Of a DNA stretch of 64,000 bases, positions 29,884 to 50,567 are shown piece by piece (the stretch's first letter is position 1; the number at the start of each line of letters is the position of its first letter). Below the pieces are notes generated by a model that was not told where the DNA came from, did not search any database, and worked only from the letters and a program-made list of their open reading frames with translations. Source of the stretch: an uncultured archaeon (GTDB lineage Archaea; Thermoplasmatota; Thermoplasmata; Thermoplasmatales; Thermoplasmataceae); the NCBI GenBank assembly GCA_000965745.1, contig CP009479.1, positions 128,001 to 192,000 on the forward strand. Reading direction: 5' to 3'. Made by a program: the position numbers and the translations under genes.

Positions 29884-29959
29884 TGATGATCATTCCGCAG
29901 TTAGCGGAGGGCTGTTGATGCGGAGAAGGCTTGGAACCGCCAGGGCTGATCCTTTTTTT
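29884..29959 (+). ncRNA. Candidate small structured (C/D-box-like) RNA
   Basis: TGATGA ... CTGT-TGATGC ... CTGA, two internal hairpins, T7 run immediately downstream. Confidence 0.3.
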
Positions 29960-30092
29960 GCGGAGATACAAAGATTTAAATCTTCTGTTATGGAATACAG
30001 GTCTGCAATATTGCCTGGTACAGTTATGGTCTGATCATACAGTACAGTTTCAAGCCAGCAGGTCTTGCAACAAAAGGGGGTTTCTTGAGGAT

Positions 30093-31658: not shown

Positions 31659-31780
31659 GTGTATGTTAATATTTTCCATACATGCAATGACTGAACAATG
31701 GGAACGACATAGCAATTAACCACCAAATATTACATTCTTGCTACCTATTTTGCCTCCGTAAGAACATTTAAATTTTATGA

Positions 31781-32713: not shown

Positions 32714-34251
32714 TACCTCTCTTGTATGAATTTATTCGCGCAATTAAAAGCAAAACAGTCATAATACTGACCGTTGTGATAATCCTTTTCTCTCTAGGTA
32801 TAGCGTTTGGCCTTGCGACGGGCGTTACTACAACCTCTCCACAGAACCAGTACCAGACCTACGCCTATGGGTACGGATACAACGGAAGTTACAACTTCAC
32901 TGTTATAATCCAAAACGGATACGGTGACCCTGTGCAGGGGTCAGTGGTGAACGTTAGCCTTCAAGACGGAGTAGTTCTCCATAAGCCAACAAATGCCAAT
33001 GGAATTGCAAATTTTACACTGACAAATGTGAATAGTTCAGTTCTGAGTCCTCAGCCGGGAACAAACTTCGCACTCCTTCAATTTAACTACACAACTACCC
33101 TTGGATTTCCAATTACTAATTCCATGATAGTATACACTACCGAGCAGAACAATTCCTATTTCTTCCATCAATACAGCGGTCTGGACTCCCCGAAGTCGAA
33201 CCTGTACAACAGTAGCAGATACTCCATGAATACGGTTTCAATCCATAATTTGCAGAACAGAAGAGGCATAAGTTTCCAGTATATGGGTGGATACAACAGT
33301 TCCATTCCAACGGTGAGCCTGTACTACGAGAAGTTCAACGTCAGCAATGGATACAGTCTTAATTTCAGCGCGCTCACTGAAAACAACATGACTCATTACG
33401 GCACCTACAACTCATACTTCCAGAAACTCAATCTTGAGAACCTGTCAGGTGGGAATAATGAAATGTATGTTTTCGCACTGTTCACACCATCAGGACAGAG
33501 GGTCTCTATTGTGCAGGTATTTGTCCAAACCAGTGCAAGCAGCACTAATGTAAACAGCCTCTTCTTCTCCGGTGAGATGCTTCTCTTGGGTCTTTTTGTT
33601 CCTTTGATGGCTGCGGTTTCTGCGTATATGACGTATGGCAAGGATCGAACCGGTAATGTTCTGGAGTCCGTTCTGGTAAGGCCGGTATCTAGACGTGGGT
33701 TGTTGTTTTCCAGGTATGTTGCAAATACACTTGCTGTGCTGATAGCTGCTGTTGCTTCATTTGCCGTGACATCGATTGTTTTTGAACACTATCTGGGAAG
33801 AAGCCTGCCGGTAGATACCTTTACCTACGGCCTATGGGCATTATTCATAGGAATAGCCGGGTTCATAGGACTGGTTTATCTTGCTTCCAACTTCATGAAG
33901 TCGCAGGGAGCATTGCTTGGATTTGCGATGGCGATCTTCTTCGTGCTGGATTTCTTCTGGACATTCCTTGCCCTGATCCCAAACTTACTGGTGTCATATG
34001 TCCTCAGGCTCCCCATTGGAAGCCTTGCGTACGGAAAAGCACTCATCGCACTGGATTATTCCACGCCGGTGGGATTTGGCCAAATTGCAAACTACATACT
34101 CAGTGGAAGCACTGCGAGTCTTGTTGGGAATGTTCAAGGTGCAACGCTGGCTGATCTGGGCCTTACACCAACAGTTATGATTGCTCTTGGAATAGTGTGG
34201 ATAGTGGTCCCTATTGCCCTGGCAATATATTTCTTCTCCAAGAGGGATTGA
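32710..34251 (+). CDS. ABC-2 type permease, paralog of 30093..31658
   Basis: Shares AYGYG.NGSY, NG.G.P.QG, YVFALFTPSG and YGKD..G.VLESVL.RPVSR with the paralog. Confidence 0.87.
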   Translation: MIPLLYEFIRAIKSKTVIILTVVIILFSLGIAFGLATGVTTTSPQNQYQTYAYGYGYNGSYNFTVIIQNGYGDPVQGSVVNVSLQDGVVLHKPTNANGIANFTLTNVNSSVLSPQPGTNFALLQFNYTTTLGFPITNSMIVYTTEQNNSYFFHQYSGLDSPKSNLYNSSRYSMNTVSIHNLQNRRGISFQYMGGYNSSIPTVSLYYEKFNVSNGYSLNFSALTENNMTHYGTYNSYFQKLNLENLSGGNNEMYVFALFTPSGQRVSIVQVFVQTSASSTNVNSLFFSGEMLLLGLFVPLMAAVSAYMTYGKDRTGNVLESVLVRPVSRRGLLFSRYVANTLAVLIAAVASFAVTSIVFEHYLGRSLPVDTFTYGLWALFIGIAGFIGLVYLASNFMKSQGALLGFAMAIFFVLDFFWTFLALIPNLLVSYVLRLPIGSLAYGKALIALDYSTPVGFGQIANYILSGSTASLVGNVQGATLADLGLTPTVMIALGIVWIVVPIALAIYFFSKRD

Positions 34252-34485: not shown

Positions 34486-35740
34486 GGGTGTCCCCTAAAA
34501 GTTGGGGGTAACCTGAGACATCCTGCCAACAGATAGCTTATATTCTTGGGCACTGAAGCCATAGGACCGCTTGAATGCGATACGGATCCTGTTTTTTCAG
34601 GCCTTCAACAATGCCTGAACTTATGCCCGATCTTATTGCTTCGAGAATGCCTTCCATGTGCCGCCACATGGACTTTGCAAGCCTGATGATCTCGGGCATC
34701 CTTGACCTTCTTGCCCAGGATATCCACTTTGCAAGATAGTCCACAACCATCTCATTTCTCAGGGACCAGAGCCTCTGCAGTGACTCCTTGAAATGATATG
34801 CATGTGTGACCTGGAGATCGAGCTTCCTGATATCTTTCAGCTTCTCCTTCTGCTTTTCACTGAGCTTATCAGGATTCATGAACAATGTGTACCGAGTGCC
34901 CTTGAGTATGACATTCTCCCTGGCCTCCTTCCTCCTGATTTTATCAAGTGCATCGTTCATCATCTTGATCACATGGAAGTGATCAAAGACGATCTGAGAG
35001 TCGGGGATATACTTCTCAGCACCGGATATGAACGATGGATCCATGTCCATGGAGACATGCTCTATTCCTTTCGGATCAATGAACGGATTCTTCTGCAGGA
35101 ATCTGAGGAACACCTCCGATTCCTTTCCCTCCTCGATGTGAATTATCCTGCTGTTCCTTATGTCGTAGAACAGCGTCGCATAAACATGATGCTTTTCAAC
35201 TGAGAATTCATCAACTCCCGGCACTGAAATATCCGAGATATCCTGCTCCTTTCTTGCCTCTTCAACATAGTGCCTGAGGATTCTCCACACAGAATCGTCG
35301 CTTATTCCGATCATTCTTGATACGGCGAGTGGAGGCATTTCCCTGCACATCTCCACTATCATCGCCTCGAAGTGAAGGGAGAAGCCTGATCCCCTGCTTG
35401 CCCATGGCATGTCCACCGTCTTCTTCCCATGCTCGGAGCAGAGTATCCTAAGCTCCCTTGCATGCACGTACGTGGGGTACTGGAAAATGTTCAGGTGCCT
35501 CCATGTCCTCTCAGTTGTGTCGTGCACTCCCGCCGATTCATGACACACGGGACATGGGAATTTAGAGCCTCTGGGGAAATCAATGGTGATGTCCACCCTC
35601 TTCTCATTGTGATCAAACCTTATTTCCTTTATTTTCCAGGGTTCCTCAAGGCATAGAAGCTTACTGAACAATCCCTCTGAATCCATGGATTGTGATCGAA
35701 AAGGAATTTATTATTTACCCCCAGTGATCGAGAGAGAACC
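34486..35740 (-). mobile_element. ISL3-family insertion sequence, copy 1
   Basis: Imperfect 26-bp terminal IRs (GGTTCTCTCTCGATCACTGGGGGTAA at 35740 on minus; GGGTGTCCCCTAAAAGTTGGGGGTAA at 34486) enclosing the transposase. No target duplication seen. Confidence 0.85.
34538..35686 (-). CDS. ISL3 transposase, frameshifted near C-terminus
   Basis: CPVC zinc finger, WRHL, GVDE, SMDM, FDHFH, VEG. The canonical tail RIAFKRSYGF lies in another frame after an A6 run (~34592-34597). Confidence 0.9.
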   Translation of the reverse strand: MDSEGLFSKLLCLEEPWKIKEIRFDHNEKRVDITIDFPRGSKFPCPVCHESAGVHDTTERTWRHLNIFQYPTYVHARELRILCSEHGKKTVDMPWASRGSGFSLHFEAMIVEMCREMPPLAVSRMIGISDDSVWRILRHYVEEARKEQDISDISVPGVDEFSVEKHHVYATLFYDIRNSRIIHIEEGKESEVFLRFLQKNPFIDPKGIEHVSMDMDPSFISGAEKYIPDSQIVFDHFHVIKMMNDALDKIRRKEARENVILKGTRYTLFMNPDKLSEKQKEKLKDIRKLDLQVTHAYHFKESLQRLWSLRNEMVVDYLAKWISWARRSRMPEIIRLAKSMWRHMEGILEAIRSGISSGIVEGLKKQDPYRIQAVLWLQCPRI

Positions 35741-36373
35741 TCTTTTATTCAACACATCCTGAACCAATGGCATGAGTTCTTCAGGTATACGCAGGTCCCT
35801 CTTATCAAAATCTATAATTTTTGACAGCTCAAGTTCAGACAGCAATGTGTTGTAGCCCTGGCCTTTTACACCTTGTTTGAACCCTTTCCTCCCCGCCAGT
35901 GTCTGGTTCTCGTAGTAGTTTCTATATCTTCTCCCCTCTTCATTAAGTTCTAAAATCGCATTGAGGACTGATCCTCCTTGGTTTCCAAATTTTTCAAGGA
36001 ATTCTTTGATCCGATCTCTGAACATGTCCCAATTTGAACTTTGTGTGAACTCCTTATTTTTTCCATTAAACGTGTAATATTCCCCGTTGAAATCATAGAA
36101 ATCGTTGAGCATCTCCTTGTTTTGTGATAGCCAGTCATTTAACTTCTGATCTGAAATCAGCCTTGCAACCTCTTTGGTCACTTTGTCACTATCAAATCCT
36201 TTGTATTTGTCGTCGTAGCCGTTATCATTGAAGCCAAGACAGTAGTCCGATTTCAGTTCTCTGCACAACTTGAACAGTAGGTTTTCCTCCAGGGTTCTGC
36301 CAGAATAAGACTGAGGACATATTTTTGAAAGGAGAAGAAATCGCTCTTCCTCTTTAGAATTATGTCTGCTCAT
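35711..36373 (-). CDS. Hypothetical protein with C-terminal wHTH-like segment; last 9 codons supplied by the IS end
   Basis: AT-rich 220 aa ORF; GSLSITGGK* is the translation of the ISL3 left IR. Confidence 0.7.
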   Translation of the reverse strand: MSRHNSKEEERFLLLSKICPQSYSGRTLEENLLFKLCRELKSDYCLGFNDNGYDDKYKGFDSDKVTKEVARLISDQKLNDWLSQNKEMLNDFYDFNGEYYTFNGKNKEFTQSSNWDMFRDRIKEFLEKFGNQGGSVLNAILELNEEGRRYRNYYENQTLAGRKGFKQGVKGQGYNTLLSELELSKIIDFDKRDLRIPEELMPLVQDVLNKRGSLSITGGK

Positions 36374-36815
36374 ATTTTGTTAGCAGTAATCTGGATAAAT
36401 ATCTTTCCCTTCATGACATAATGTATTGACTCATGTGTTCCGACCCGTTAAAATCGCTTCTAATCGAACCAGAATGACACCTTGAGTTGAGTCTATGGGG
36501 CACCCTTTTTCTTTCCATTAATCTTCCATCACTTGTAACTTCACGGGTCAAGCTTGCACGGAATTCAAGAAGTCATTTCTTTCAGAGTAGACGCCGAGTA
36601 GGCAAGGATCAGACTGGAAAATGCAAATCACATGGTATCAGCAAAAGTAACCAAAAAATAGCGTAACAAAACTTCTCCCTGATGTCGGTGATTATGTGAG
36701 GGGGAAAGATCATCTGGAGTTCATATCATGCCTGATTAGTGCTTCACCGAATAGCTCTCGCCCTTCTGAATGGTAAAAATGTTTATATTCTATATCACGT
36801 AAATCCCGATAGAGG

Positions 36816-37913
36816 GTGTTTTTAATCGAGACTCAGAAGTTGACTGCAAAACTAAAATATGCTTTTAATGAACTGTCGAAAGACAGGGGTGTTGGATATA
36901 ACCTATTTTTCGTTTGGCCTGTATTCTCGCAAAACCTGATTTATACACTTCAGAAGGCTGGAGCAGAAAAGATCTCACCAAACCAATATCGTGTTATGTG
37001 TACTCAGAACGATGTCAGTTTCTATAGAACGAGGAAACTGTTCGGATCTGATTTTGTTGTAAATGTCTTGGAAGGTGATCAGTATGGCGTTGTAAATGGA
37101 GTTATTAATAAAACGAATTGGAGGGATATTGGAAAAGCAAAATTGGCATTACGCGAGGTTGGACTTAACAACGTTAGCATAACACCTACCTCGTTGTACA
37201 ATTTTTTACTTAACACTCATAATTACGAAGGTTTTCTTCTGAAAGAGTACAGAGCAGGTGCCCCCAAGCTTCAATCTTACTTTAAGGATGACCATGTAGA
37301 TGTTAATCAGAGAATTGTGCTAGAAAAATTAGAAAATGATTGGGCATACGGAATCCGCCCCTATCAAGCAACGCTTAAAGAACCCAGTAAGAGTGTCGAG
37401 ATAAGATTTTACAGTCAAGGTTTTATTTCTATGGCTGTTCTTCCAAAGAGCTTTGGTGTTGTTACAAAACTTATAAGCCACATGTTTAAGGATCATCAAA
37501 AGGCTTTAAATAAGGTATCAGAAGCTGGTAGAGAGCGTTTAAAAACTCCCTCGGTCAACTTGGTTAGACACAAGAATTTGATCCTAAGGCTTGAAGATTA
37601 TGATACTGCATCGAACGGCAAATCACAATCGGCCTTGAGTTACGATGAGGACCGTTTAAATAGCCTTCTTTTGTATCTATCGGAATTTGCCGAGATCTAT
37701 GGAAAGAGGATAGAGGGGCGTTCGTTGGTTTTTAACCTATTATATGAGAAGACACCAGAAAGCGATGAAGTTAATCCAACATTTTCAGTAGACATAACCC
37801 CTAAAAGAGTTCTCGTTAGCCCTACGGGCCCTGTGAACAAAGAGAACTTGATCCATCTGTATTACGGAATAGAAAGGTTCTATAACGTAACTTCAAAGAG
37901 TGATGTAAATTAA
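36816..37913 (+). CDS. Uncharacterised protein, module gene A (homolog of 49680..50567)
   Basis: 365 aa AT-rich ORF with TTTATA upstream (~36782). Shares three blocks with 49680..50567. Confidence 0.8.
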   Translation: MFLIETQKLTAKLKYAFNELSKDRGVGYNLFFVWPVFSQNLIYTLQKAGAEKISPNQYRVMCTQNDVSFYRTRKLFGSDFVVNVLEGDQYGVVNGVINKTNWRDIGKAKLALREVGLNNVSITPTSLYNFLLNTHNYEGFLLKEYRAGAPKLQSYFKDDHVDVNQRIVLEKLENDWAYGIRPYQATLKEPSKSVEIRFYSQGFISMAVLPKSFGVVTKLISHMFKDHQKALNKVSEAGRERLKTPSVNLVRHKNLILRLEDYDTASNGKSQSALSYDEDRLNSLLLYLSEFAEIYGKRIEGRSLVFNLLYEKTPESDEVNPTFSVDITPKRVLVSPTGPVNKENLIHLYYGIERFYNVTSKSDVN

Positions 37914-38952
37914 ATCTCCAAACAAAGAGAAGAGGGAAACTCATATCCGAAGAGCAATCGAACATGCAAAATTCAAATATGTAATTCAAAGGTTGTTCAA
38001 CGACGAAAATGCTACACACGGACACGCTTATCTGGCGTCAGACATTTTTACCTCATTAGAGGATAAGAAGGATGGGTCATGGGACCTCTTAATATGTGAA
38101 ATAGAGGGCTTAGTAAAGAATGAGATCCACCCTATATTTATTGAGGTCAAGTCAACCTTCGAAGACAATGAAAAGTTAGTGGGAGAGATTGTAGCCAAGA
38201 TCAAAAAAACTGAAGAGCTGGCCAAGAACAACGTTCAAGACCTGATACTATCTCAAATATCGGCTGTTGACCCAAAGAAATTCACAATGAGGTGGGATAA
38301 AGCCGAATATGTTGTATTCATTCCAGGCAGACTTTCCATGGGCATCGTTGACTATATTGCCTCTAATTCAAAGAAATGGAAGAATAAAACAGGACTGGTG
38401 ATTTGGTCATACGACAAGGGAGACACTGAACGAGATGTAATACAAATTCCTTATAACCATAGAAATGATATCAAGACTTGTCGAAATATTGACAATGCCA
38501 AATGTAACCTATGCCTATGTAATCATTATAGCTCAAAGATGGCCTCGTTCTTCAGGCATGTTGACAAGCAGGAATTGGAAAAGCCAAGAATAATGCCTTC
38601 TAAGCACAAGTATGTAGACCCAGTTGTAAACATTATTTCAATACTTCACGTGGGAAAATTATTCAGATCTAATGAGAAGAATCTCACCTTGAACGACATC
38701 AAGGAACGTGTTAAACGTTTTTTTATTGATTATAGTATCGAATTGGACAAACAAGAGATTGAATTTTTGATTTACCTGATGAATCGCGGAAAGATTATCC
38801 TTAAAACAAAGGGAGATCCAATGGGAGCTTATCACTTGAATAAGGATATTGCAGATGCTCTAGAAGATGAGAAGCTATTAACGGAAGAAATCGTGAAGCG
38901 AACAGTAAACAACAAGCTGCCTGACACCTTCCTCGAACAATTTGATAAATAG
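37909..38952 (+). CDS. Putative PD-(D/E)XK nuclease with Cys cluster and C-terminal wHTH, module gene B
   Basis: WDLLI...IFIEVKS motif, CRNIDNAKCNLCLCNH, wHTH-like end. The frame is open from ATT 37909; the ORF track start is TTG 37993. Confidence 0.72.
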   Translation: MKSPNKEKRETHIRRAIEHAKFKYVIQRLFNDENATHGHAYLASDIFTSLEDKKDGSWDLLICEIEGLVKNEIHPIFIEVKSTFEDNEKLVGEIVAKIKKTEELAKNNVQDLILSQISAVDPKKFTMRWDKAEYVVFIPGRLSMGIVDYIASNSKKWKNKTGLVIWSYDKGDTERDVIQIPYNHRNDIKTCRNIDNAKCNLCLCNHYSSKMASFFRHVDKQELEKPRIMPSKHKYVDPVVNIISILHVGKLFRSNEKNLTLNDIKERVKRFFIDYSIELDKQEIEFLIYLMNRGKIILKTKGDPMGAYHLNKDIADALEDEKLLTEEIVKRTVNNKLPDTFLEQFDK

Positions 38953-39070
38953 CCAAATCCCAGTCTTCACGTTAGAGAATTGTAACAGGTACAGAGACGA
39001 TGAGGAATGCATATAGATTTATCTGTGAGACATATTCAGGGCCTCCAGGGTAGGTAAAACCTGAACAGCG

Positions 39071-39096
39071 TGCATGGCATTGGCCTCGGCCATGCA
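39071..39096. terminator. 8-bp stem hairpin between convergent ORFs
   Basis: TGCATGGC-N10-GCCATGCA. Confidence 0.3.
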
Positions 39097-39152
39097 TATT
39101 GCCTTATTATTTAAAATTCTCAACCAGATAGATCTACTTCTGAATTACTGAA

Positions 39153-39353
39153 TTAACTGTGAGTTAATTCGTATTCTGCCAGTCTAAGGGCTGAAGTCAC
39201 CAAAGGATTGTACTCTCCATGTATGACATTTTCAAATAACCCTTCAACTTCCTTTACTGATCTTTTTGTAAGACCTGCATAATAATGCACAGCAATATCT
39301 CTGACGGCTTTTCCTGTTGATATTCTCGACTCTTCGGCTGTCAATTTTCTCAC
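39153..39353 (-). CDS. Small hypothetical protein
   Basis: 66 aa ORF with a TATA-like AT-rich stretch upstream; no motif recognised. Confidence 0.45.
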   Translation of the reverse strand: MRKLTAEESRISTGKAVRDIAVHYYAGLTKRSVKEVEGLFENVIHGEYNPLVTSALRLAEYELTHS

Positions 39354-39543
39354 CCGATATTCTTTAAATGAGAGGTAGATAAATATTTATGGACTTCCGT
39401 TAGGTCATTACGGCAAAAATTGAAAATACATTAGGTGAGATGTATCCATGTGTAAATGCCGGATCATAATCTCACTGAACATTTCTAGTTTATCTTCGAC
39501 GTCCTGACAAATAGGGTTTTATATCTACAAAGCTGGGATAGGA

Positions 39544-39912
39544 TCAGTATTGTTTTCTTTCTCTGGACTTATTTTCTAATCCGTATTTTTTAATTTTTTC
39601 GTAGAATGACTTTGGTTTGTTATCCACCTTCAATATAACAACTTTGATGTTATGTGGGCAGTCACCGTGCAGTCCTGAGTGCGCAATTTCACCGTCAATG
39701 TAGGAATCGCAACTCGCGTATGCATACAAGGATTCAAAGGGTGCCCGCATCCCAACTCCGCCACTGATAATGTCTCTGTGAAATCCGTTAAGGCTACTAA
39801 GCCTATATGTTGCTATCCGCCAGTCATTCCATTGTCTTCTTACCTTTACCAGAGTCTCTCTAGGATTCATCTCTTCGTTAGGCTTGCCCTTATCACTTTT
39901 CACTAAAATCAC
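39544..39912 (-). CDS. Small Cys/His-containing hypothetical protein coupled to hsdR
   Basis: GTGA 4-nt overlap with the hsdR stop; [14 protein letters not shown]...AHS..HG.CPH.IKV. Confidence 0.7.
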
Positions 39913-42900
39913 TCTCCCTTGGCAATCAATTCAGCCTGCTTGATGACAGTTTCTGTTGCCTTCTTCTGCTTATCAGGAGGATAGCCATATTTCCTGAGTA
40001 TTCTCTTGACAGCTGCCCTGAGCTTAGCACGAACGTTCTCCCTCACTGTCCAGTCTATTGTTTTATTCTTCTTTACAGTGTCAACGAGTTCCAGAGCAAT
40101 CTCCCTCAGCGTTTCGTCTCCGAGAACCTTTACTGCAGAGTCGTTCACTTCAAGGGCATCATAGAATGCGAGTTCCTCTTCCGTCATCTTGAGGTCCGAA
40201 CCACGATCCGCGGATGCCTTGACCTCCCTGGCGAGTCCTATGAGTTCCTCTATTACCTGTGCTGCTTCCACTGTGTGGTTCTCATATCTCTTTATTGCAT
40301 CTTTGAGCATATCGGAAAACAATCTGGATTGAACCAGGTTCTTCCTCATGTGCGTACGAAGTTCATCGTTGATGAGTTTTTCAAGCAGTTCGAGTGCGAG
40401 ATTCCTCTGCCGCATGCTCTTGATTGAATTCAGGAACTCATCAGACATTATGGGGGATACATCCGGTTTCTTTATGCCGGCAGCCTCGAATATGTCAATA
40501 ATGCCCCTAGAACCTATGGCTTCAGAAATGATCTGCCTTATGGCTGTATCTGTCTCCTCCCTGCTTCTTTCCGTCGATACCGTGTGCTTGACGATCTGTG
40601 CCTTTATCGCCTGCAGGAATCCAACCTCGTCTCTCACCTCCAGAGCTTCCCTCATGGGAACTGCAAGGGAAAATGCCCTTGACAGTTCCGTTACTGCCTT
40701 TACAAATCTCTCCTTCCCCTGATCAACGCCGAGAATGAAGTTCAGAGCGTTGACAATAATGGTCATCCTCTGGCTACTGCCGGATCTGAAATATATGGAA
40801 TAATCAAAGCCGTGGAAGATATCCCTGCATACTTCCAGTTTCTCCAGCATGACCTTTACTGCTTCTTCCTGGTCAATACCAACGTCCCTCCTGTCTGATG
40901 GAGAATATGAGATAAGAGCACTCTTGAGATTGTATCCTATGCCGATGTAATCGACAATGAGGCCTCCCTGTTTATCCTTGAATACCCTGTTAACGCGGGC
41001 AATGGCCTGCATCAGATTATGCCCTTGCATGATCTTGTCAACATACATCGTATGAAGGATAGGAGCGTCAAATCCTGTGAGCCACATATCCCTGACTATT
41101 ACAATCTCAAGTGGATCATTGGGTCTCTTCAATCTTGAGGCAATATGCTCCCTTCTTGCCTTGTTTCTGATATGAGGTTGCATTTTCTGGGGATCGCTAG
41201 CAGATCCTGTCATTATGACTTTAATAGCACCTGTATCATCCTGATCGGAGTGCCATTCCGGTTTGATCCTGGTGATTGCATCATACATTTCAACGCAGAT
41301 CCTTCTGCTTGTGCATACGACAAGGGCTTTGCCAACCAATGCTGATTCTCTGGCTTCAAAATGCCTGACAATATCAGAAGCGATCTCGTCAATCCTGCTC
41401 TGTGTTCCGACAATGGCTTCTAATCGGGACCACTTGCTTTTCAATCGATCCTGGACTTGTTCTCCCTCCCCTTCTGTTATTTCATCAATCTCCTTGTTGA
41501 TGGAATCCAGTTCATCACGCTTGACATGCAGCTTGACAAGCCTCGCCTCATAGTATATGGGCACGGTGAATTTATCCTCGACAGACCTTTCGATATCATA
41601 GATGTCGATGTAGTCGCCAAATATCTGGACAGTTGTTCTGTCGCTCAGTTCAAGAGGAGTTGCGGTGAACCCGATGAAGGAAGCATTCGGCAGTGCGTCA
41701 TGGAGGTGCCTTGCAAATCCGTCTATGAAATCATACTGCGAGCGGTGTGCTTCATCCGCTATGACGATAACGTTCCTTCTCCCGGTGAGGAGAGGATCCA
41801 TATCATCAGTATCTGGTACAAACTTCTGAATTGTCGTGAAAATTATGCCACCTGAAGCAACCTTGAGCAATTCACGGAGGTTCTTTCTAGTTTCGGCCTG
41901 CACAGGTGTCTGTCTCAGCACCTCATGGCATCTTGAGAAACCATCGAAGAGCTGATTGTCAAGATCATTCCGGTCGGTCATAACGACAATGGTTGGGTTT
42001 TCAAGCGCGGGGTGCTGAATGATCTTACCGGCGTAGAATATCATGGTGATGCTCTTGCCGCTTCCCTGGGTGTGCCATACAACGCCTATCTTCCGATCGC
42101 CATTTTCCGATATGGCATTGAGAGTATTGTTCACAGTGGCATTGACCGCATTGTACTGGTGATAGCCTGCAATCTTCTTTGAAATATTGGATTTATCAAC
42201 CTCGAACAGAATGAAATTAACAATGATATCAAGAATCCTGTCCTTTGAAAAGACATCGTGAACCACTGTGTTCAGATCCGGCTTCCCCACTGGAACATTG
42301 CTCTTCCCCTGAACTGATCTCCACGGCATGAATCTCTGCCAGTCTGAGGTTATGGCCCCAATCTTTGCATCAATTCCGTCTGAGATTACAACGATCTCAT
42401 TGTAATGGAATATGGTGGGTATGTCGTTCTTGTATGTCTGGATCTGGTTGAATGCATCCTCCATGGTTGCATTTTCATTTGCAGGGTTTTTCAGCTCCAT
42501 TATCGCAATGGGAATGCCGTTGATGAAGACAACAACATCAGGCCTGCGTTCCTGCTTCTCCGCAACTGTAAACTGATTCACTACAAGGAAGTCATTATTT
42601 CCAATGTTCTTTGAATCGATCAACTTGAGTGTATCATACCTTACCCTCCCATCTTGATCCTTTGATTCTATTGTGATCCCGTCTGTGAGGTAGCGATGAA
42701 AAATGTGATTGTTCTCAACGATGCTTGGAGCATGATATGTTGTGATCTTCTTGACAGCCTCTTCCCACAAATTGCTGTCAATATTGTTTATTCTTGATAG
42801 GGCAGATTTTAGCCTGTCATACAGGATAACTGACCTGTAATCTCTCCTTTCAGGTGCTGAACCATCATATGCAATGTCCGGTCCGTTCTTCACATCGTAA

Positions 42901-42965
42901 CCTACCTCTCTGAACCATTCAAGGGTAGCATTCTCTGCATCAGATTCAGTGAAGAAACTACTCAT
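39909..42965 (-). CDS. hsdR: Type I restriction endonuclease subunit R
   Basis: RRPDVV.FING.P...[46 protein letters not shown]. Confidence 0.97.
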
Positions 42966-44175
42966 CCGTATCTCCCAGTGGTACGCGGATTTTTCCTGAC
43001 ATAAGCTTTGGAAGAAGAAAATCTCTTATTGAGACCAGCAATGTGCTTTCTCTTTGCGATAGATCTATTTTTTCAAGGATTTTTGCAGATATGGCACCAA
43101 ACAAATTCACCAAAGAGGATGGTGGCTTTATGGATTTTCTATCCAATACTTGATTCTTATTCAATCCTGGAACAGCGCTATGGGAGTTCATCCGATCCAA
43201 ATTTAAGAAACTCAAGAGGTAGTACCAGAAAGTAATGTTTGTCCCGTTTTTTACTTCGACATAATATGTAGTATCAATAGGCCAGAAATCTGTGAAGGAA
43301 AACCTTACTTCGCCAACTGTACCCTTCCTTCCTATTATTATGCCCGGACCTTCAACAAGATGTTTATCGTTATATCCCACTACACCATTTGACCCGAAGA
43401 CCGGTACATAGCCTTCTTGCCTTCTGTCTTGGCGTAGAGATTTTCCATAACGCAGGTCGATAGACTGCGCAATTTTCTCAACATTCCATCCCTTTGGTAT
43501 CTCTCCGAGTTCAGAATCAACCATTTCTCCTTCACTCGACTTATATGGATTTCCATTCTCATCTGGAAACTCAAAATCGATGAACCAGTGCTTGAATATT
43601 GCCTGTGCAGTGGATTCTAAGGTTTTGTTCATTTGTTGGTTGAGTTCGATTTTGGAATCGAGGTCAGCAAGTATCTTGGATATTACCTTTTGTTCCTTTT
43701 CCGGGGGACAGGGTACGATAGATTCTGCTATGACTTCTGCGGTTATTGATGGATACGCAGTCGTGCTGGTCTCAGCTATAGCTGACAAATAACTTGTGTA
43801 TTCATTAGTTGTAATAGAATAGTACAAAAAATCCGAATCTATTTTTCTTGGAGTCAAAACAACGAACCCGGTTGAGGCGATAGTACACGACTTGGAGCCC
43901 TTAATCCTACAGTAATGCTTCAAGTTTGGTCTCACAGAAGAAATCAAGATGTCTTTGTCTTGGACCACTCTTTTTGCTCTAGTTGGAGCTTCATTCAAGG
44001 ATAAATTTGTAGTTTTCCTGATTACCCCCTCCTCTACAGAATCAATGTCAATGTACTCTATGTACCGACAAGCTGTGTTTTTTTTCAGATTCTTTTCATT
44101 GATTGAGGCGAGTTCCTTCACAATTCTAGCGCTCCAACCATTGGGCAAATCGAGAGGAGAGCCATTTTGGTTCAA
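42958..44175 (-). CDS. hsdS: Type I R-M specificity subunit S
   Basis: Two TRDs with the conserved spacer EQ..I..IL..LD.KIELN...N.TLE..AQA.FK.WF; LLPKLMSG. Confidence 0.95.
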
Positions 44176-44211
44176 GAGTAGCCATCTCCGTTATAACTTT
44201 CAGATTTGCGT

Positions 44212-45018
44212 TCAATTTTCACTCTCAGTTTCCCCCACAATAACCATTGTTAAATCAAATGCTGCATTCAGCAAATTGGCGACATAATATAATTCATCAG
44301 AAATACTCTCCGATTGCTTTGTCTCAATCAATTTTTCGATATTCTTTTGTTTCTTTGGTTCCGTGATTTTCATCACGGAATCCTCTGCTTTCTTAGCCAA
44401 TTTCTTTGTAAAATTGGCATTTATTGACTCAAAGCCTTGTTGCTTTTGTTCATAAACTTGGAACAATTCTTTCCCAAGAATAGAGCCACTTTTTTTGATC
44501 CGTTCTGAATGCTGAACGAAATCTTTCTCCCCTTCTTTAAACGTAATGTAGTGCTGTTTTTTCTCATCAATCGCGTAATCTTCGCAATCTCGCAACGGAA
44601 TAAGCCTAGAGTTCTTAGTAACTTGCCGACTTAGGAATGCATCCTCAAATCTTTCGCCAGAAGAAACTTCTGGTGCCACATAATATGTTTCTTCATTACC
44701 AAGAATCTGTGCGTGCGCCCATAGGTGTCGATGTTGTTGGTTGTTGTTGGCTTTGTGAAGCTTAAATCTATAATAAGGACCACTGTATGTGCCATCTGCA
44801 ATGAACATCGAATTGCCTCTCGAATATCGTTCACTCAGCTTGAATTGGTAATAAAAGTCCTTTCCTCTAGTTGGTAGTTTAACATCCCATCCTAATTTCG
44901 CTTCTCCTCTTAGGCTTGGGAGAATTGGAACTCCGATGACTTTTCTCCATTTACGAAGGGTTTGTTCGTGAAGGAATGCATAGCCAAAGGAAAACTCAGA
45001 TAAACCTATATCTGCCAT
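44212..45018 (-). CDS. Uncharacterised PD-(D/E)XK-like protein nested in the R-M operon
   Basis: SEFSFG, PSL..E..LGWD, YYQFK, QH..L, YYVAP; overlaps the hsdM stop. Confidence 0.7.
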
Positions 45019-46670
45019 CCTATATTCTCCAGATTTACCTTTATCTCTTCATCCAATCTATTGCTCTCTTCCATCTGCTGTTTCAATTCAGAAGTTAGCT
45101 TCTGCATCTTTTTCTGGAATTCTTCATCATCGTCCTCCTGCTCTTCAGAACCGACATATCTTCCAGGTGTGAGGACATAGTTGTTCTGTCTGACCTCGTC
45201 AAGCTTCGAAGAATTGCAGAATCCGGGAACGTTTTCATAATGCCCGAATTCTGACTCGCCCCTCCATGCATGATAAGTGTCTGATATCTTCTTTATATCA
45301 TCCGGGCAGAATACTCTGTGTGTTCTGTCCGTCATTGTGCCCGATTTCCTGGCATCGATGAAGAGAGTTTCTCCTCTCCTGTCCCTGAAGTTGTGATTCT
45401 GCCGGTCTCTGGAAAGAAACCATAAACACGCGGGGATGGCAACATTATAAAACAGATTCGTCGGCAGTGCGACAATGCAGTCAACAAGGTCAGCTTCAAC
45501 CATCCCCTTCCTTATGTTGCCTTCATTGCTTGTGTTTGATGATAATGAACCGTTTGCCAGAACAAAACCTGCTGTACCACCGGGAGCAAGGTGATGTATG
45601 AAGTGCTGCACCCAAGCAAAGTTGGCACTTCCCGCTGGTGGTATGCCATATTTCCATCTCATGTCTTCCCTGTGGTTCTGGCCGTTCCAGTCGCTGTCAT
45701 TGAAAGGCGGATTCGCAAGAACGAAATCAGCCTTCAGGTCCCTGTGCTGATCCCTGGAAAATGTATCTGCATTGGTCTCTCCCAGATTGCCGTCGATGCC
45801 CCTGATGGCAAGGTTCATTTTGGCAAGTCTCCAGGTTGTTGGATTTGATTCCTGTCCGTAGACGGATATGTCGCCGATTCTGCCCCCATGGGCCTGTATG
45901 AACTTCTCGGATTGAACGAACATTCCTCCAGAACCACAGCATGGATCGTAAACCCTCCCGTGATACGGTTCAATCATTTCCACCAGCAATCTGACGATGG
46001 ATGCAGGTGTGTAGAACTGTCCCCCCTTCTTTCCCTCGGCAGATGCAAACTGACCGAGAAAGTATTCGTAAACTCTCCCAAGAATATCCTTTGATCTGTT
46101 TGACGAATCACCGAGGCCAATGCTGCCAACTATATCGATCAGCTGCCCGAGTCTCTCCTTATCCAGGGTTGGCCTGTTGTAATCCTTTGGCAGTACTCCT
46201 CTAAGTGAGGTGTTTTCCTTCTCTATTGAGTCCATTGCCTCGTCTATCATCTTCCCTATGAGGGGTGTTTTGGCAGCATTCTGTATCACATGCCATCTCG
46301 CATTTTTTGGAACCCAGAATATATTCTCACCAACATACTCATCACGGTCTTCAGGGTCCGCACCTTCCACTTTTTCCTCAAGCAATGCATTGTAGCGTTC
46401 TTCGAATGAGTCAGATATGTATTTTAAAAAAATCAATCCCAGGACAACATGTTTGTACTCAGCTGCATCCATATTGCTTCTCAGCTTGTCAGCAGCAGCC
46501 CATAGTTTTTTTTCTAGGTCGTGACCCCGGAATTCCTTAATGCAATCTTCCTTGTCTTTGTTGGGAGACGTCCGACCTTGTGATTGGACATTGTTTTGGG
46601 TATTGGTGTAATTGTCTAGTTTTGAATCTACCACCACTGCATACCGATTTAACGGGTATAAAATTTTCAT
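45006..46670 (-). CDS. hsdM: Type I R-M N6-adenine methyltransferase subunit M
   Basis: [37 protein letters not shown]. True start may be a GTG near 46634. Confidence 0.96.
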
Positions 46671-46927
46671 CCTGCAACGATGTAGTTTTGTTTCTTCTTG
46701 AATATGAAATCAAACTGTTCAAACGTCAACTTGTTCTTGGTCTTCTCGATTTCTTAAGCCAGTTTCATAGCCTTTGTCTTCAGATCCTCTCTTGCTTCCT
46801 CACCCTTATTATATGCATCGAACGCGGTTTCACTCAGCATATTGTTCCAGAGAGGACATACAACAACAAATGTGCCTATCCTGTCCAGAATGAGGGGGAC
46901 CAAACCAATTGTACTTTTGAATTTCAC
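46667..46927 (-). pseudogene. Degraded ORF upstream of hsdM
   Basis: VKFKSTIGLVPLILDRIG...KAMKLA*EIEKTKNKL...IVAG* with an internal TAA at 46754-46756. Confidence 0.35.
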
Positions 46928-47005
46928 ATGGAATGTTCAACTTTCTGTATCCTGCAACTAAAAGATGGAAACATTAAAGTTTAGATAGCTTATATTTAGG
47001 GAAGA

Positions 47006-47497
47006 TTGTCAGAATATATGCCAGACTCAAAGGTTCCCATTAGTACGTTCATAGAATTGTATAAGATCGAGAGTGGGCTGATTCAAAGGAAGGTTAATCA
47101 GATATTGACCATTCGTTCGATTTCTGTCACTTTTTTGGTTGGAATTCTTACTCTGATTGGGGTTCTTGGTCAAACTTCAATATCAATGGGTGTAGCTTAC
47201 GCATTGATTCTCTTGTTCATACCATTTTATTTACTAGAATCGGTTTACGATTCTCACCTTATACCAATGCATAACCGTGAACTTCTTTTGAAGGAGGAAA
47301 TAGCAAAAATGTTGAACTCGATTTACCCGGGAAATACCATTTCAGACGCCTACAAGACAAGTGGAGTAAGCCTATTTGATTTGTCACTTCACTGGCCCCT
47401 TTTCTATGCCCTGACGAGAAAGATTAGGATAGTATACTACGCGATAATCGTAATAATTTATGTATTAGTTGTCACTCTTATCACAAGCGTTATTTGA
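47006..47497 (+). CDS. Membrane protein (about 3 TM), candidate effector of the adjacent cyclase
   Basis: Hydrophobic segments ISVTFLVGILTLIGVL, VAYALILLFIPFYLL and IVYYAIIVIIYVLVVTLI. Start may be ATG 47018. Confidence 0.75.
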   Translation: MSEYMPDSKVPISTFIELYKIESGLIQRKVNQILTIRSISVTFLVGILTLIGVLGQTSISMGVAYALILLFIPFYLLESVYDSHLIPMHNRELLLKEEIAKMLNSIYPGNTISDAYKTSGVSLFDLSLHWPLFYALTRKIRIVYYAIIVIIYVLVVTLITSVI

Positions 47498-48219
47498 GGG
47501 GAATGGAAATGGCATCATGGGCAGACTATTCAAGAGCATCAAGATCTAGAATTAATGAATATGATCGGAAACGAAAAAAATACCCACCTAAGACCGGTTT
47601 GACAATGCCAGATCTCGAAGATTTGCAAATCGGTGGATCTAGGATGTTTCAATTGGCGGTATTGTCGATTGATATAAGGGGATTCACAAAAATAGCCATG
47701 GCTTACAACAACAAGGGAGTTGAAAGTTTAGCGAGAATTCAAGCCTTGTATCTGGCTGAAATGTCTAACATCATTAAAGAATATGATGGAGTTACTGAGA
47801 AATATACCGGGGACGGAGTAATGGGACTATTTGGAACTGAGTCTGATACTAACGCTATAAACGATGTTTCTAATGCGATAAAGGCTGCACTGACAGTGAA
47901 GTTAGTTCTCAAGAACTCTTTGAATCCATATCTAAAAGAGTCAGGACTGACTGAAATTCAACTTGGAATGGGGATCGATTATGGAACCGTCATGATGGAG
48001 AGAGTTGGTCTTAGAGGAGAAAACCAATTCTCGCTTGCTGGGCCTACTGTCAGCCTAGCTTCCAAAATGCAAGCCCAGGCCGAACCGGGGCAAATTATAA
48101 TCGGAGAAGATGTGAAGAAGAGGGTTCAGGGAAACGACTTGAAATTTGTAAAACCTCATAAAATCAATTGGGACTTCACATACCCATTATACCTTTATGA
48201 TGCTACCTGGAAAGAATAG
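47494..48219 (+). CDS. Class III nucleotidyl cyclase (PycC-like)
   Basis: AVLSIDIRGFT, KYTGDGVM, GMGIDYG, ASKMQ. Likely start is ATG 47509 after GAGGGG. Confidence 0.88.
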   Translation: MRGMEMASWADYSRASRSRINEYDRKRKKYPPKTGLTMPDLEDLQIGGSRMFQLAVLSIDIRGFTKIAMAYNNKGVESLARIQALYLAEMSNIIKEYDGVTEKYTGDGVMGLFGTESDTNAINDVSNAIKAALTVKLVLKNSLNPYLKESGLTEIQLGMGIDYGTVMMERVGLRGENQFSLAGPTVSLASKMQAQAEPGQIIIGEDVKKRVQGNDLKFVKPHKINWDFTYPLYLYDATWKE

Positions 48220-48223
48220 TCAA

Positions 48224-48838
48224 TTCCCTCCTCGATGTGAATTATCCTGCTGTTCCTTATGTCGTAGAACAGCGTCACATAGACATGATGCTTCTCCACC
48301 GAGAATTCATCAACTCCCGGCACTGAGGTGCCAGAATAACCCTCTTTTCACGTGCTTCATCAACATAGTGTCTCATGATTCTCCACACAGAATCGTCGCT
48401 CATCCCGATCATTCTTGATACAGCGAGTGGAGGCATTTCTCTGCACATTTCGACTATCAATGCTTCAAAATGAAGGAAGAAACCTGATCCCCTGCTTGCC
48501 CATGGTACGTTCACAGTCTTCTTTCCATGCTCATTGCACAGTATTCTGGTATCTCTGGCGTGTACATAGGCTGGATACCGGAACACATTCAGGTGTCTCA
48601 ATGTCCTCTCTGTTGTGTCGTGCACTCCGGACGGCTCATGGCACACAGGAAATGGGAATTTCGATCCCCTGGGGAAATCTGTTGTGATGCCAACTCTCTT
48701 CTCGCTGTGATCAACGCTGATACCCTTTATTTTCCAGGGTTACTCAAGGCCTAGAAGCTTCCTGAACAGTTCCTCTGAATCCATGGATTGTGATCGAAAA
48801 GGAGCTTATTATTTACCCCGAATGATCGAGAGAGAACC
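48224..48838 (-). mobile_element. ISL3-family element, truncated and degenerate copy 2
   Basis: Near-identical to ~35125-35740, including the left IR. Transposase ATG at 48784 has an early TAA and a frameshift; the 3' half is missing. Confidence 0.88.
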
Positions 48839-48846
48839 AGTTTTAT

Positions 48847-49683
48847 TCAGAACGGGCTTTCAAAGTCAAAAAGTGTTCTTTTCCCAAGTTTTTCCACGTA
48901 ATCCCAGTATCTCCTGATAAAAGACCTCTGGAATTTCTTGCTGTTCTTCGGGAAATATATCTCATTGGCCCTTGCTGTTATCAGGCCAGCCTTGTCCAGG
49001 TCCTGGAGAAGCTCTGAAAAATCTGCCCTGATCATCTCCCTTTCCTCACCGACCGAGAATGCGTACGCCTCTGCAGAGGACTCGTAAAGGATGGTTGGAA
49101 GTGATGCTTTTCCCGTCCTTGCATAGTTGAGCGATATGAATGCAAACTTTACCAGAGGGTCAAGCTGGCTGATGTATGGATGAGGGAAGTTGCCTATAAT
49201 CCGCATACCCTCGTCAGAGGAAAGCTTCTTCAGGAATTCATCTGATGTTTCACCCTTGATCATTGCCCTGGCCGTAGATTTTTCTGTCGAGATCAGCCAG
49301 ATCATCTCAACCGGAAACAGATCAAAGGTTGATTCTCTCTTCAGGGGCTTCCCGTCTGCAATAATCAGGATGGAAGTGACCTTGTCCCTGCTTCCGGAGG
49401 TATCCTGCCTGTCATTTTCCATCTTCACCCTAAGGCCTTCTGCATCCTCAAGGTCGTCGGTGGTAGCATATGCGTAAAAAAACTCGTTTGATTCACTCCT
49501 AGAGACTGTCCGGACTGCCTTTATTCTTGAGTAGCCCTCCTCGATCCGGACATCTTTGACTGAAAGCTGGAGTTCACCGTAATTCTGCTGGATAAGGGAG
49601 TATGCTGCAGAGAGCAGCTCATGCTGCCCCAGGTTCCTCTCAGATTCTTCCTGGCGCTCCCTGATGATTTTCGGCGAGGTCAT
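48847..49683 (-). CDS. Uncharacterised protein, divergent homolog of gene B; wHTH-like end and PIP-like tail
   Basis: ATGA overlap with the upstream gene; IW, DPLV, LLQDLDKAGLI, KRTLFDF. Confidence 0.78.
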   Translation of the reverse strand: MTSPKIIRERQEESERNLGQHELLSAAYSLIQQNYGELQLSVKDVRIEEGYSRIKAVRTVSRSESNEFFYAYATTDDLEDAEGLRVKMENDRQDTSGSRDKVTSILIIADGKPLKRESTFDLFPVEMIWLISTEKSTARAMIKGETSDEFLKKLSSDEGMRIIGNFPHPYISQLDPLVKFAFISLNYARTGKASLPTILYESSAEAYAFSVGEEREMIRADFSELLQDLDKAGLITARANEIYFPKNSKKFQRSFIRRYWDYVEKLGKRTLFDFESPF

Positions 49684-50567
49684 CTAACAACATCTCCTTC
49701 AATGCTTTCAAGAATGTCCAGGAGCCCTTCCATCTTGGAGTTAAGGGTCGGCAGGAATTCCAGCGAGTTCCGGTCAAGGTCTATCCTGTATGTTGACCGC
49801 TCATTTCCCCTGTGGAATGCGTAAAACGAAGTGACGCTCCCGGAGCTTCTTATCTCCCCAACGTTGAAATTCCTCCTTATTCTTGAGAAAAATTCCTCTT
49901 TCTGCAGTTCACTTGCAAGCCTGACCGAAAGCTTCTCGACGGGGACAAATTCCTGGTGGTCCAGTTTCATCTTGAGCCTGAGGTGGCTCAGTTTCTCCAG
50001 CATGTCCATATCAGCCTCTATCACGGCAGTTGAGGTCCTGTAAATAAGTTCCATCGCGTCCCAGTACCCACCGTGTATGAAATAATTGAAATCCTTCCTG
50101 ACAGTGACCTTCGAGCTGTCCTTGCTGAACGTCAACAGGAATGGTTTCATCCCCTTCTCCTCGTTCTCCTTCATCAGGTTTATAATGTCTTCTGAATGCC
50201 CTGCACTCCCCGGGGACTTGACATCAAGCCTACCGTTTCCTGATGAGCTGAACCCGTAGAGATCGTATCCCATTAATTTCGCAATATCCATCAGCCTGGA
50301 AAATGAGCTCCCCCGGATCTTCAGGAAGTCAAAATCGTCATAAAAATCCTCCCTGAATGTGGCATACTCGCCATGGGTGAGGGAGGACTGAATAAATCTG
50401 TAATTCTTAATGACAGGTATCGACCTGAGATCGAGATACTGCTGCCTGTGGATCTTGCTTATGAAAAACTCGCCAGGCGTACGGACAAGCGTGTATCTAA
50501 CTGTTCTCCCGCGCGAGAGTTTCGGGAGTGATTGCAGTGCAAGTTCCCTGAATTCTTCAAGCTCCAC
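49680..50567 (-). CDS. Uncharacterised protein, divergent homolog of gene A
   Basis: 295 aa ORF; GMKPF..T, TYRIDL..PT..E.L..IE blocks shared with 36816..37913. Confidence 0.78.
   Translation of the reverse strand: MELEEFRELALQSLPKLSRGRTVRYTLVRTPGEFFISKIHRQQYLDLRSIPVIKNYRFIQSSLTHGEYATFREDFYDDFDFLKIRGSSFSRLMDIAKLMGYDLYGFSSSGNGRLDVKSPGSAGHSEDIINLMKENEEKGMKPFLLTFSKDSSKVTVRKDFNYFIHGGYWDAMELIYRTSTAVIEADMDMLEKLSHLRLKMKLDHQEFVPVEKLSVRLASELQKEEFFSRIRRNFNVGEIRSSGSVTSFYAFHRGNERSTYRIDLDRNSLEFLPTLNSKMEGLLDILESIEGDVVR

What the first reader, a model, noticed from the sequence alone, without database searches (positions are those of the whole stretch)
36816..50567. Unannotated two-gene module present twice: one island copy (A-B) and one divergent copy outside the island (A'-B')
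Seen in sequence: A (36816..37913) and A' (49680..50567) share ordered blocks. These are ELSKDRGVGYNLF / KLSRGRTVRYTLV, LENDWAYGIRPYQATLKEPSKSVEIRFYSQGFI / MKENEEKGMKPFLLTFSKDSSKVTVRKDFNYFI, and PTFSVDITPKRVLVSPTGPVNKENLIHLYYGIE / STYRIDLDRNSLEFLPTLNSKMEGLLDILESIE. B (37909..38952) and B' (48847..49683) share IKSPNKEKRE / MTSPKIIRE, LVIW / EMIW, DPVV / DPLV, a wHTH-like segment and a terminal L-x-x-F. Gene order and tight coupling are conserved. B has a D...E-x-K nuclease motif and sits among R-M and cyclase genes. Inference: an undescribed nuclease-plus-partner system, probably antiviral or anti-plasmid. A may carry repeated beta-beta-beta-alpha (TBP-like) units acting as sensor or scaffold. 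I recognise no named system that it matches.
Basis: partly seen in the sequence, partly recalled or inferred. Interest (0 to 1): 0.85.

Follow-up and report, generated by a model that had tools for sequence, protein, structure and literature searches.

The report
Clamp-riding nuclease pair with disarmed twin
Two linked genes in an acid-loving archaeon encode a predicted DNA-cutting complex whose tail looks built to hook onto the cell's DNA-copying ring; look-alike pairs travel on mobile DNA in archaea and bacteria, probably as an undescribed defence, and this archaeal family also keeps a non-cutting version in its chromosome.

Summary
Confirmed and extended. A/A' are remote homologues (profile E 2e-7); B/B' probably are (E 7e-6 to 6e-3, alignment-dependent). 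BLASTP sees neither. They are not a recent duplication.

A-B is rare mobile cargo: 14 of 14 loci are paired, including a third copy elsewhere in this genome, which the scan had noted separately. A models as an RdgC-like domain plus a KA1/TBP-like domain. B models as a PD-(D/E)xK nuclease plus winged helix with a PCNA-box-like tail. The predicted A-B complex scores 0.86 against controls of 0.00.

A'-B' is single-copy and chromosomal in about 40% of family genomes. B' lacks the catalytic motif but keeps the tail (31 of 33).

By fold and gene order the module resembles the function-less Pfam pair MJECL33-MJECL32, found on archaeal and bacterial mobile elements. There the tail is PIP-like in archaea and QLSLF, the beta-clamp motif, in two bacteria. 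The Thermococcus A-like protein TK0593 co-purified with replisome proteins in a published pull-down.

Best reading: a sliding-clamp-tethered nuclease complex acting against invading DNA (0.5), plus a domesticated dead copy. No described system matched. Nothing is tested experimentally.

The parts
36782..36789 (+). TATA-box-like element with an A-rich stretch upstream, 27 nt before the GTG of A; fits a leaderless archaeal transcript
   Evidence: sequence; inference from known archaeal promoter geometry
36816..37913 (+). Gene A, 365 aa: RdgC-like domain (about res 18-235) plus C-terminal KA1/TBP-like domain (about res 240-360) that contacts B in the model
   Evidence: AF2 model pLDDT 83; Foldseek RdgC E 2.7e-4 (71); VIA Z 6.7 and 7.5 (72); Atlas TM 0.61-0.62 to MJECL33-like clusters; complex
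37245..37364 (+). Most conserved segment of the A family (res 144-183: EYR, Q-x-Y-x-K-D, G-x-x-P-Y); not among the named A-B interface residues; candidate nucleic-acid or self-binding surface
   Evidence: alignment; interface list; role inferred
37898..37911 (+). Junction: SD-like GAGTGA, an in-frame ATG-TAA (37903-37908), then ATT (37909) overlapping A's stop; probable non-AUG start of B, or a nonsense change
   Evidence: reads unavailable
37909..38952 (+). Gene B, up to 347 aa: PD-(D/E)xK nuclease (D59, E79, K81; H19), winged helix (about res 233-333), C-terminal PIP-like tail
   Evidence: alignments; AF2 pLDDT 88; fold searches
38923..38943 (+). Degenerate PIP-like tail of B (DTFLEQF; Q-x-x-L/I-x-x-F in relatives)
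34538..35751 (-). ISL3-like transposase copy at the left part of the island
   Evidence: ORF; 84% identical over 629 bp to the right copy (125); family name from my own knowledge
39909..46670 (-). Type I R-M operon (hsdM, an inserted 268-aa gene, hsdS, hsdR) in the same island
   Evidence: PADLOC
47006..48219 (+). Small hydrophobic protein plus Pycsar-type cyclase; Pycsar-like pair
   Evidence: PycC E 3.6e-30; partner has no family hit
48224..48849 (-). ISL3 remnant, right border of the island, abutting the stop codon of B'
48847..49683 (-). Gene B', 278 aa: nuclease-like fold without the catalytic motif, conserved P-x-P-Y linker, winged-helix-like region, PIP-like tail
48862..48882 (-). PIP-like tail of B' (KRTLFDF)
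   Evidence: 31 of 33 B' sequences; 15 of 2046 genome ORFs match a looser pattern
49680..50567 (-). Gene A', 295 aa, remote homologue of A, ATGA overlap with B'

Best explanation
A and B form a heteromeric endonuclease that is tethered to DNA through the host's sliding clamp and is carried by mobile elements as a defence against invading DNA. B supplies the PD-(D/E)xK active site and a winged helix. Its C-terminal peptide docks on PCNA (on the beta clamp in the bacterial look-alikes). A's C-terminal domain holds B between its nuclease and winged-helix domains, and A's RdgC-like domain binds DNA and gates cutting. The likely targets are clamp-loaded, replicating or end-rich DNA of plasmids or viruses. 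B is probably made in small amounts by translational coupling to A. A'-B' is an old domesticated copy: B' lost catalysis but kept the A-binding linker and the clamp tail, so it acts as a non-cutting clamp-bound factor. Shown computationally: domains, motifs, pairing, distribution, a predicted A-B complex. Inferred: clamp binding, DNA cutting, the target, the defence role, the job of A'-B'.
For: Catalytic-type motif in 28/28 B and 13/14 MJECL32-like proteins but 4/33 B', with no conserved column. A is always followed by B: 14/14 loci. Complex score 0.86, best control 0.00; the mark was reached by 58 of 80 solved and 2 of 110 mismatched pairs; runs agree in at least 91% of contacts; partner pLDDT at least 83. 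Tail pattern: B' 14/14, B 9/27, A 0/16, genome ORFs 15/2046; a canonical Q-x-x-L-x-x-F-F in L051. In the look-alike family the tail is PIP-like in archaea and QLSLF in Lysinibacillus and an Anaerolineales genome; both consensus motifs are given in PMC3504372. TK0593, the MJECL33 relative identified by mass and gene count, co-purified with tagged Cdc6, Fen1 and RPA2 and was absent from untagged controls (PMC2962436). Contexts: type I R-M and cyclase island, tRNA-Glu island, integrase and primase elements, TA clusters, GmrSD, methylases, Hachiman, MazF, TnsD, KAP NTPase. A is found in only 3 of 169 genomes of the order, and one copy is broken.
Against: No experiment on any member. Two thirds of B tails fail my pattern and one subfamily ends without the aromatic residue. 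The B' tail usually has Lys, not Gln, at position 1. The link to MJECL33/32 is weak by sequence (E 0.003-0.006). TK0593 scores were low, it is not listed with tagged PCNA1 or PCNA2 in Table 2, and TK0592, which bears the tail, is not mentioned in the main text. Defence-rich neighbourhoods were noted, not tested against a background. Several loci look like integrated plasmids, where addiction or replication roles fit too.
Confidence: 0.5

Rival explanations
1. Clamp-coupled DNA repair or fork-processing nuclease, NucS/Hjc-like in logic, carried by mobile elements as useful cargo; A'-B' is its housekeeping, non-cutting descendant.
For: PIP-like tails; NucS among the fold matches of B (Z 7.3, rmsd 3.0, 103 aligned); TK0593 with Fen1, RPA2 and Cdc6; A'-B' lies next to an Nre-like repair gene (named from memory) in three genera; deleting TKV3, which holds TK0592-0593, slows growth (PMC6972569).
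Against: The active version is rare, patchy and sometimes broken, while the vertically kept version is the dead one. Neighbours are mostly defence, TA and mobility genes. TKV3 holds many other genes.
Confidence: 0.22
2. Toxin-antitoxin or addiction module: B is a clamp-targeted toxic nuclease, A its antitoxin; A'-B' is a chromosomal anti-addiction relic.
For: Upstream partner predicted to bind the nuclease; tight coupling; weak or non-AUG starts in both B genes of this genome; location in TA clusters and on plasmids.
Against: A is large with its own conserved RdgC-like domain; the named interface residues do not include D59, E79 or K81; an anti-addiction copy would need A' only, yet B' is always kept.
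Confidence: 0.15
3. Stand-alone restriction enzyme (type IIS-like or modification-dependent) with A as specificity subunit; the tail is incidental.
For: Best whole-chain match of B is PaqCI (Foldseek E 1.4e-3; Z 7.2, rmsd 5.2, 221 aligned); methylases lie near several loci.
Against: No cognate methylase is part of the module; the tail is the most conserved feature of B' and changes with host domain in the look-alike family.
Confidence: 0.1
4. A'-B' is unrelated to A-B and the similarity is chance or convergence.
For: BLASTP not significant; B/B' probability drops to 6-35 with some alignments.
Against: A/A' E 1.7e-7 with reciprocal HMM hits; both genes match in the same order; cross pairs (A/B', B/A') give nothing.
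Confidence: 0.05

Closest known systems
Pfam MJECL33 (PF25924) + MJECL32 (PF27326) gene pair (M. jannaschii plasmid; T. kodakarensis TK0593-TK0592 in TKV3; Bacillus plasmids)
   Same: Gene order and overlap; full-length fold of A (TM 0.61-0.62, 307-310 aligned); partner with N-terminal His, D...E-x-K and a clamp-type tail; mobile contexts
   Different: Sequence similarity is marginal (E 0.003-0.006); A and B relatives carry no precomputed hit to these families; no paper naming them was found; the families have names but no tested function known to me
NucS/EndoMS
   Same: PD-(D/E)xK nuclease with a C-terminal clamp peptide, PIP in archaea and beta-clamp type in Actinobacteria (PMC8228993)
   Different: NucS has an N-terminal DNA-binding domain, a C-terminal nuclease and a single gene; B has an N-terminal nuclease, a winged helix and an obligate partner gene
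RdgC
   Same: Fold of A residues 18-229 (Foldseek prob 1.0, E 2.7e-4; VIA Z 6.7, rmsd 4.8, 167 aligned)
   Different: 8-10% identity, TM about 0.3; A has an extra C-terminal domain and a nuclease partner; ring formation not tested
Two-gene nuclease defence systems (Hachiman HamA, Shedu SduA) and type IIS enzymes (PaqCI)
   Same: Nuclease fold (Z 5.8-7.2), island context
   Different: No helicase, ATPase or methylase partner; no PADLOC match; clamp-type tail
RnlA/LsoA toxins
   Same: TBP-like domains resemble parts of A
   Different: No HEPN RNase domain was matched in A; the nuclease is on the separate gene B

Membership tests
PD-(D/E)xK nuclease superfamily (B) | Restriction-endonuclease-like alpha/beta core | tested here: met
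   Model res 11-220 matches Upx, AF1548, NucS, Card1 and BglII at Z 6.8-7.7; middling Z but consistent
PD-(D/E)xK nuclease superfamily (B) | Conserved D ... (D/E)-x-K catalytic residues | tested here: met
   D59 and K81 invariant, E79 at least 90% in 28 sequences
PD-(D/E)xK nuclease superfamily (B) | Metal-dependent cleavage | not testable with these tools
   needs an assay
Active PD-(D/E)xK nuclease (B') | Conserved catalytic D and E-x-K | tested here: not met
   No conserved acidic or Lys column in the N-terminal domain of 33 sequences
MJECL33 (PF25924) | Hit to the Pfam model above its cut-off | tested here: inconclusive
   Model absent from the local Pfam; precomputed column empty for A relatives; own profile comparison Prob 6-11 (106, 120)
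MJECL33 (PF25924) | Same full-length fold | tested here: met
   TM 0.61 and 0.62, rmsd 5.0, predicted models on both sides
MJECL33 (PF25924) | Followed by an MJECL32-type nuclease gene | tested here: met
   A always precedes B; MJECL33 precedes a partner in 15 of 19 genome loci, 5 plasmids and TKV3
MJECL32 (PF27326) | Sequence or profile similarity over the full length | tested here: inconclusive
   E 0.004 over 51 columns around the catalytic motif; Atlas feature score 0.79 for B', a lead only
PCNA-interacting (PIP-box) proteins | Terminal Q-x-x-[ILM]-x-x-aromatic(-aromatic) motif | tested here: inconclusive
   Canonical in one B, Q-x-x-L/I-x-x-F in several, degenerate in the window's B; Lys replaces Gln in most B'; strongly enriched over genome ORFs
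PCNA-interacting (PIP-box) proteins | Binding to PCNA | not testable with these tools
NucS/EndoMS | N-terminal DNA-binding domain plus C-terminal nuclease; hit to the NucS family | tested here: not met
   Domain order is reversed with a winged helix (77, 85); no Pfam or NCBIfam hit
RdgC | Pfam RdgC hit, stand-alone protein | tested here: not met
   No hit; extra C-terminal domain (72)
RdgC | Dimeric ring that binds DNA | not tested
Described defence systems in PADLOC 2.0 | Hit to a system's protein models | tested here: not met
   A, B, A', B' none; the MJECL32/33 relatives gave only one weak Cas6 hit, E 0.002 (132); systems described after 2023 are not covered
Type II toxin-antitoxin | Toxicity of B neutralised by A | not testable with these tools
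   needs an expression test

The most novel reading that the evidence does not exclude
A cross-domain family of defence nucleases that locate invading DNA by riding the host's own sliding clamp, swapping the PCNA peptide for the beta-clamp peptide when they move between archaea and bacteria, and that gave rise in Thermoplasmataceae to a catalytically dead, family-wide chromosomal clamp partner with a new housekeeping or guard role.
Probability: 0.3. Interest if true: 0.88.

Novelty: new variant of a known kind. Interest (0 to 1): 0.7.

Why it matters
If right, it adds a way of targeting invaders: a nuclease brought to replicating DNA by the host clamp rather than by sequence, guide or sensed protein. 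It also gives a testable function to two orphan Pfam families. Tractable hosts exist: T. kodakarensis TK0592-0593, with a published pull-down, and Bacillus plasmid pairs. The dead A'-B' copy would be an overlooked PCNA partner conserved across much of an archaeal family, and a clear case of a mobile nuclease being domesticated.

Tried and rejected
BLASTP of the pairs: not significant. Pfam, NCBIfam, PADLOC: nothing for the four proteins. PDB sequence search with B and B' profiles: only chance hits. The Atlas model of A' is too poor to use (pTM 0.33). Single-sequence comparisons with MJECL32/33 were blank (95-98). This is weak evidence against a viral core function. No paper was found for MJECL32/33, AF0896 or a clamp-tethered defence nuclease. 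Recent duplication rejected: identity is below BLAST detection and the distributions differ. Functional linkage from adjacency rejected: no other A-B locus fetched has A'-B' within its flanks, and the island is absent from three congeners. 'Non-AUG starts mark active B' is not established: it is firm only for the two copies in this genome, possible in two more loci, and three B' also lack a canonical start near the junction. One weak A' hit (G119) is a membrane transporter, a false positive.
Full report
Setting. The window is C1:128001-192000 of a complete 2.23-Mb archaeal genome. Gene content and a Cuniculiplasma label on a related B protein point to Thermoplasmataceae. A-B lies in a stretch of about 38-40% GC inside a region of about 14.5 kb that also holds a type I R-M operon and a Pycsar-type cyclase. 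The region carries two ISL3-like copies, 84% identical over 629 bp; the right one abuts the stop codon of B'. In three congeners the ABC permease gene lies directly beyond B', so the island is an insertion next to a resident A'-B'.

Check of the observation. The ORFs are as stated. BLASTP finds nothing between the pairs. Profiles do: A vs A' Prob 93.8, E 1.7e-7 over 209 columns, far above column shuffles, with reciprocal HMM hits. B vs B' gave Prob 84, E 7.5e-6 over 228 columns, but Prob 6-35 with other alignments, still above shuffles. Cross pairs give nothing. Homology is secure for A/A' and likely for B/B'. tblastn showed a third pair in this genome, closer to A-B, at about 1.135-1.137 Mb, at the end of an island that ends at tRNA-Glu (137).

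Two distributions. A is rare: 3 of 169 genomes of the order and about 20 clusters among 1.8 billion representatives. In all 14 loci with DNA downstream, B follows at once; one copy is broken by stops. Neighbours are integrases, primase-polymerase, TA pairs, transposases, GmrSD and methylases. A' was found in 43 of 102 other family genomes, one of them a false hit, and in none of 66 outside the family. It is single-copy and near-universal in eight genera. B' follows it wherever the contig allows. Four genera share a flanking phosphate transporter, named from the sequence by eye, and divergence from a congener is mostly synonymous (pN 0.13 and 0.26, pS about 0.8). So A-B behaves as mobile cargo and A'-B' as an old chromosomal locus.

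Anatomy. The A model (pLDDT 83) has an RdgC-like part, residues 18-229 (71, 72), and a KA1/TBP-like C-terminal domain (72); Z values are middling. The B model (pLDDT 88) has a restriction-enzyme-like domain and a winged helix (85). D59, E79, K81 and H19 are conserved. B' has no such conserved residues; its conservation lies in a P-x-P-Y linker, the last helices and the tail. The predicted A-B complex scored 0.86 against a best control of 0.00. That mark was reached by 58 of 80 solved complexes and 2 of 110 mismatched pairs; the runs agree in at least 91% of contacts and partner pLDDT is at least 83 (127). This supports binding but does not show it. A's C-terminal domain (240-338) contacts B around residues 28-42, 222-227 and 247-255. 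The stretch at 222-237 aligns with the conserved B' linker.

The tail. B' ends in K-[RK]-T-L-[FY]-D-[FY] or close variants in 31 of 33 sequences. The few proteins of this genome with similar ends include FEN1 and an Nre-like protein, both named from memory. A looser pattern matches 14/14 B', 9/27 B, 0/16 A and 15/2046 genome ORFs; I chose that pattern after seeing the tails, so the contrast is somewhat inflated. One B has a fully canonical PIP box. The PIP and QL(S/D)LF consensus motifs are given in PMC3504372.

A wider family. The A model matches MJECL33-like clusters over its whole length (TM 0.61-0.62), and a feature search with B' listed an MJECL32 cluster (0.79, a lead). On the M. jannaschii plasmid these two genes overlap in the same order as A-B. 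The same holds in T. kodakarensis, inside the integrated pT26-2-family plasmid TKV3 (PMC6972569), on Halobacterium, Lysinibacillus and Bacillus plasmids (100-103) and in 15 of 19 further genome loci. The partners carry D...E-x-K. Their tails are PIP-like in archaea, QLSLF in two bacteria, and a Q-L/M-T-I-D-E-F type in Bacilli. Sequence similarity to A and B is only marginal, so I treat them as a probable sister family, not as proven members. TK0593, identified with the MJECL33 relative by mass and gene count, co-purified with tagged Cdc6, Fen1 and RPA2 and not from untagged cells, at low scores (PMC2962436).

Start of B. No canonical start precedes conserved H19 in the window; an SD-like hexamer lies 5 nt before ATT 37909, which overlaps A's stop. 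The third copy has ATA in the ATGA-type geometry, and its first ATG falls after the catalytic Asp (24, 137). Two other loci may do the same. Reinitiation at overlaps is documented in archaea (PMC6728339). A nonsense change at ATG-TAA cannot be excluded without reads.

Mechanism and verdict. Shown by computation: homology, pairing, domains, catalytic motif in B and its loss in B', enriched tails, predicted complex. Inferred: B cuts DNA, the tail binds the clamp, A binds DNA and gates B, and the target is invading replicating DNA. I give defence 0.5, repair 0.22, addiction 0.15, plain restriction 0.1. No described system matched in PADLOC 2.0 or in the literature searched. Earlier scan notes on this genome proposed the PIP-like tail, the dead B' and the Ile starts by eye; I had noted these before reading them and tested them here. 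They are not independent support. The parts are known folds; the combination, the clamp-type switch and the domesticated dead copy appear undescribed. New variant of a known kind, interest 0.7.

Noticed in passing
window 47006-48219 (+): A 163-aa hydrophobic protein overlaps a cyclase with strong PycC hits (E 3.6e-30); a Pycsar-like system whose effector has no family hit.
   Followed up: partly
window 44212-45018 (-): A 268-aa gene inserted between hsdM and hsdS with a D...Q-x-K-like motif and no Pfam, NCBIfam or PADLOC hit; possible extra nuclease.
   Followed up: no
window 35711-36373 (-) and 39544-39912 (-): Two orphan island ORFs. The first runs into the end of the left IS copy, so its C-terminus may be IS-derived.
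   Followed up: no
window 29931-34251 (+): Two paralogous ABC permease genes flank one ATPase gene.
   Followed up: no
G000 C1:1,108,000-1,137,552 (L020): Island ending at tRNA-Glu with the third A-B copy, a DUF5906 primase/helicase-like gene, three genes of 885-1014 aa and several IS elements.
   Followed up: partly
G000 C1:211,785-212,600 (+): A DUF72-like protein (named from memory) ends in a PIP-like QKSLFDW; possible unreported PCNA partner.
   Followed up: no
L055, L056, L069-L075: In Bacilli the MJECL33/32-like pair usually lies just behind a MazF-like gene without a visible antitoxin, twice near TnsD; possibly a three-gene unit.
   Followed up: partly
L005, L006, L109, L111, L113, L114: A'-B' is divergent from an Nre-like gene, in some followed by a radical SAM-like gene, in three genera.
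   Followed up: no
L067, L068: MJECL33-like genes in Nitrosopumilus and Pseudofrankia had no recognisable nuclease partner directly downstream.
   Followed up: no
L043 11341-12171 and L060 2718-3497: Neighbours of the module hit PADLOC candidate families PDC-S05 and PDC-M19B.
   Followed up: no
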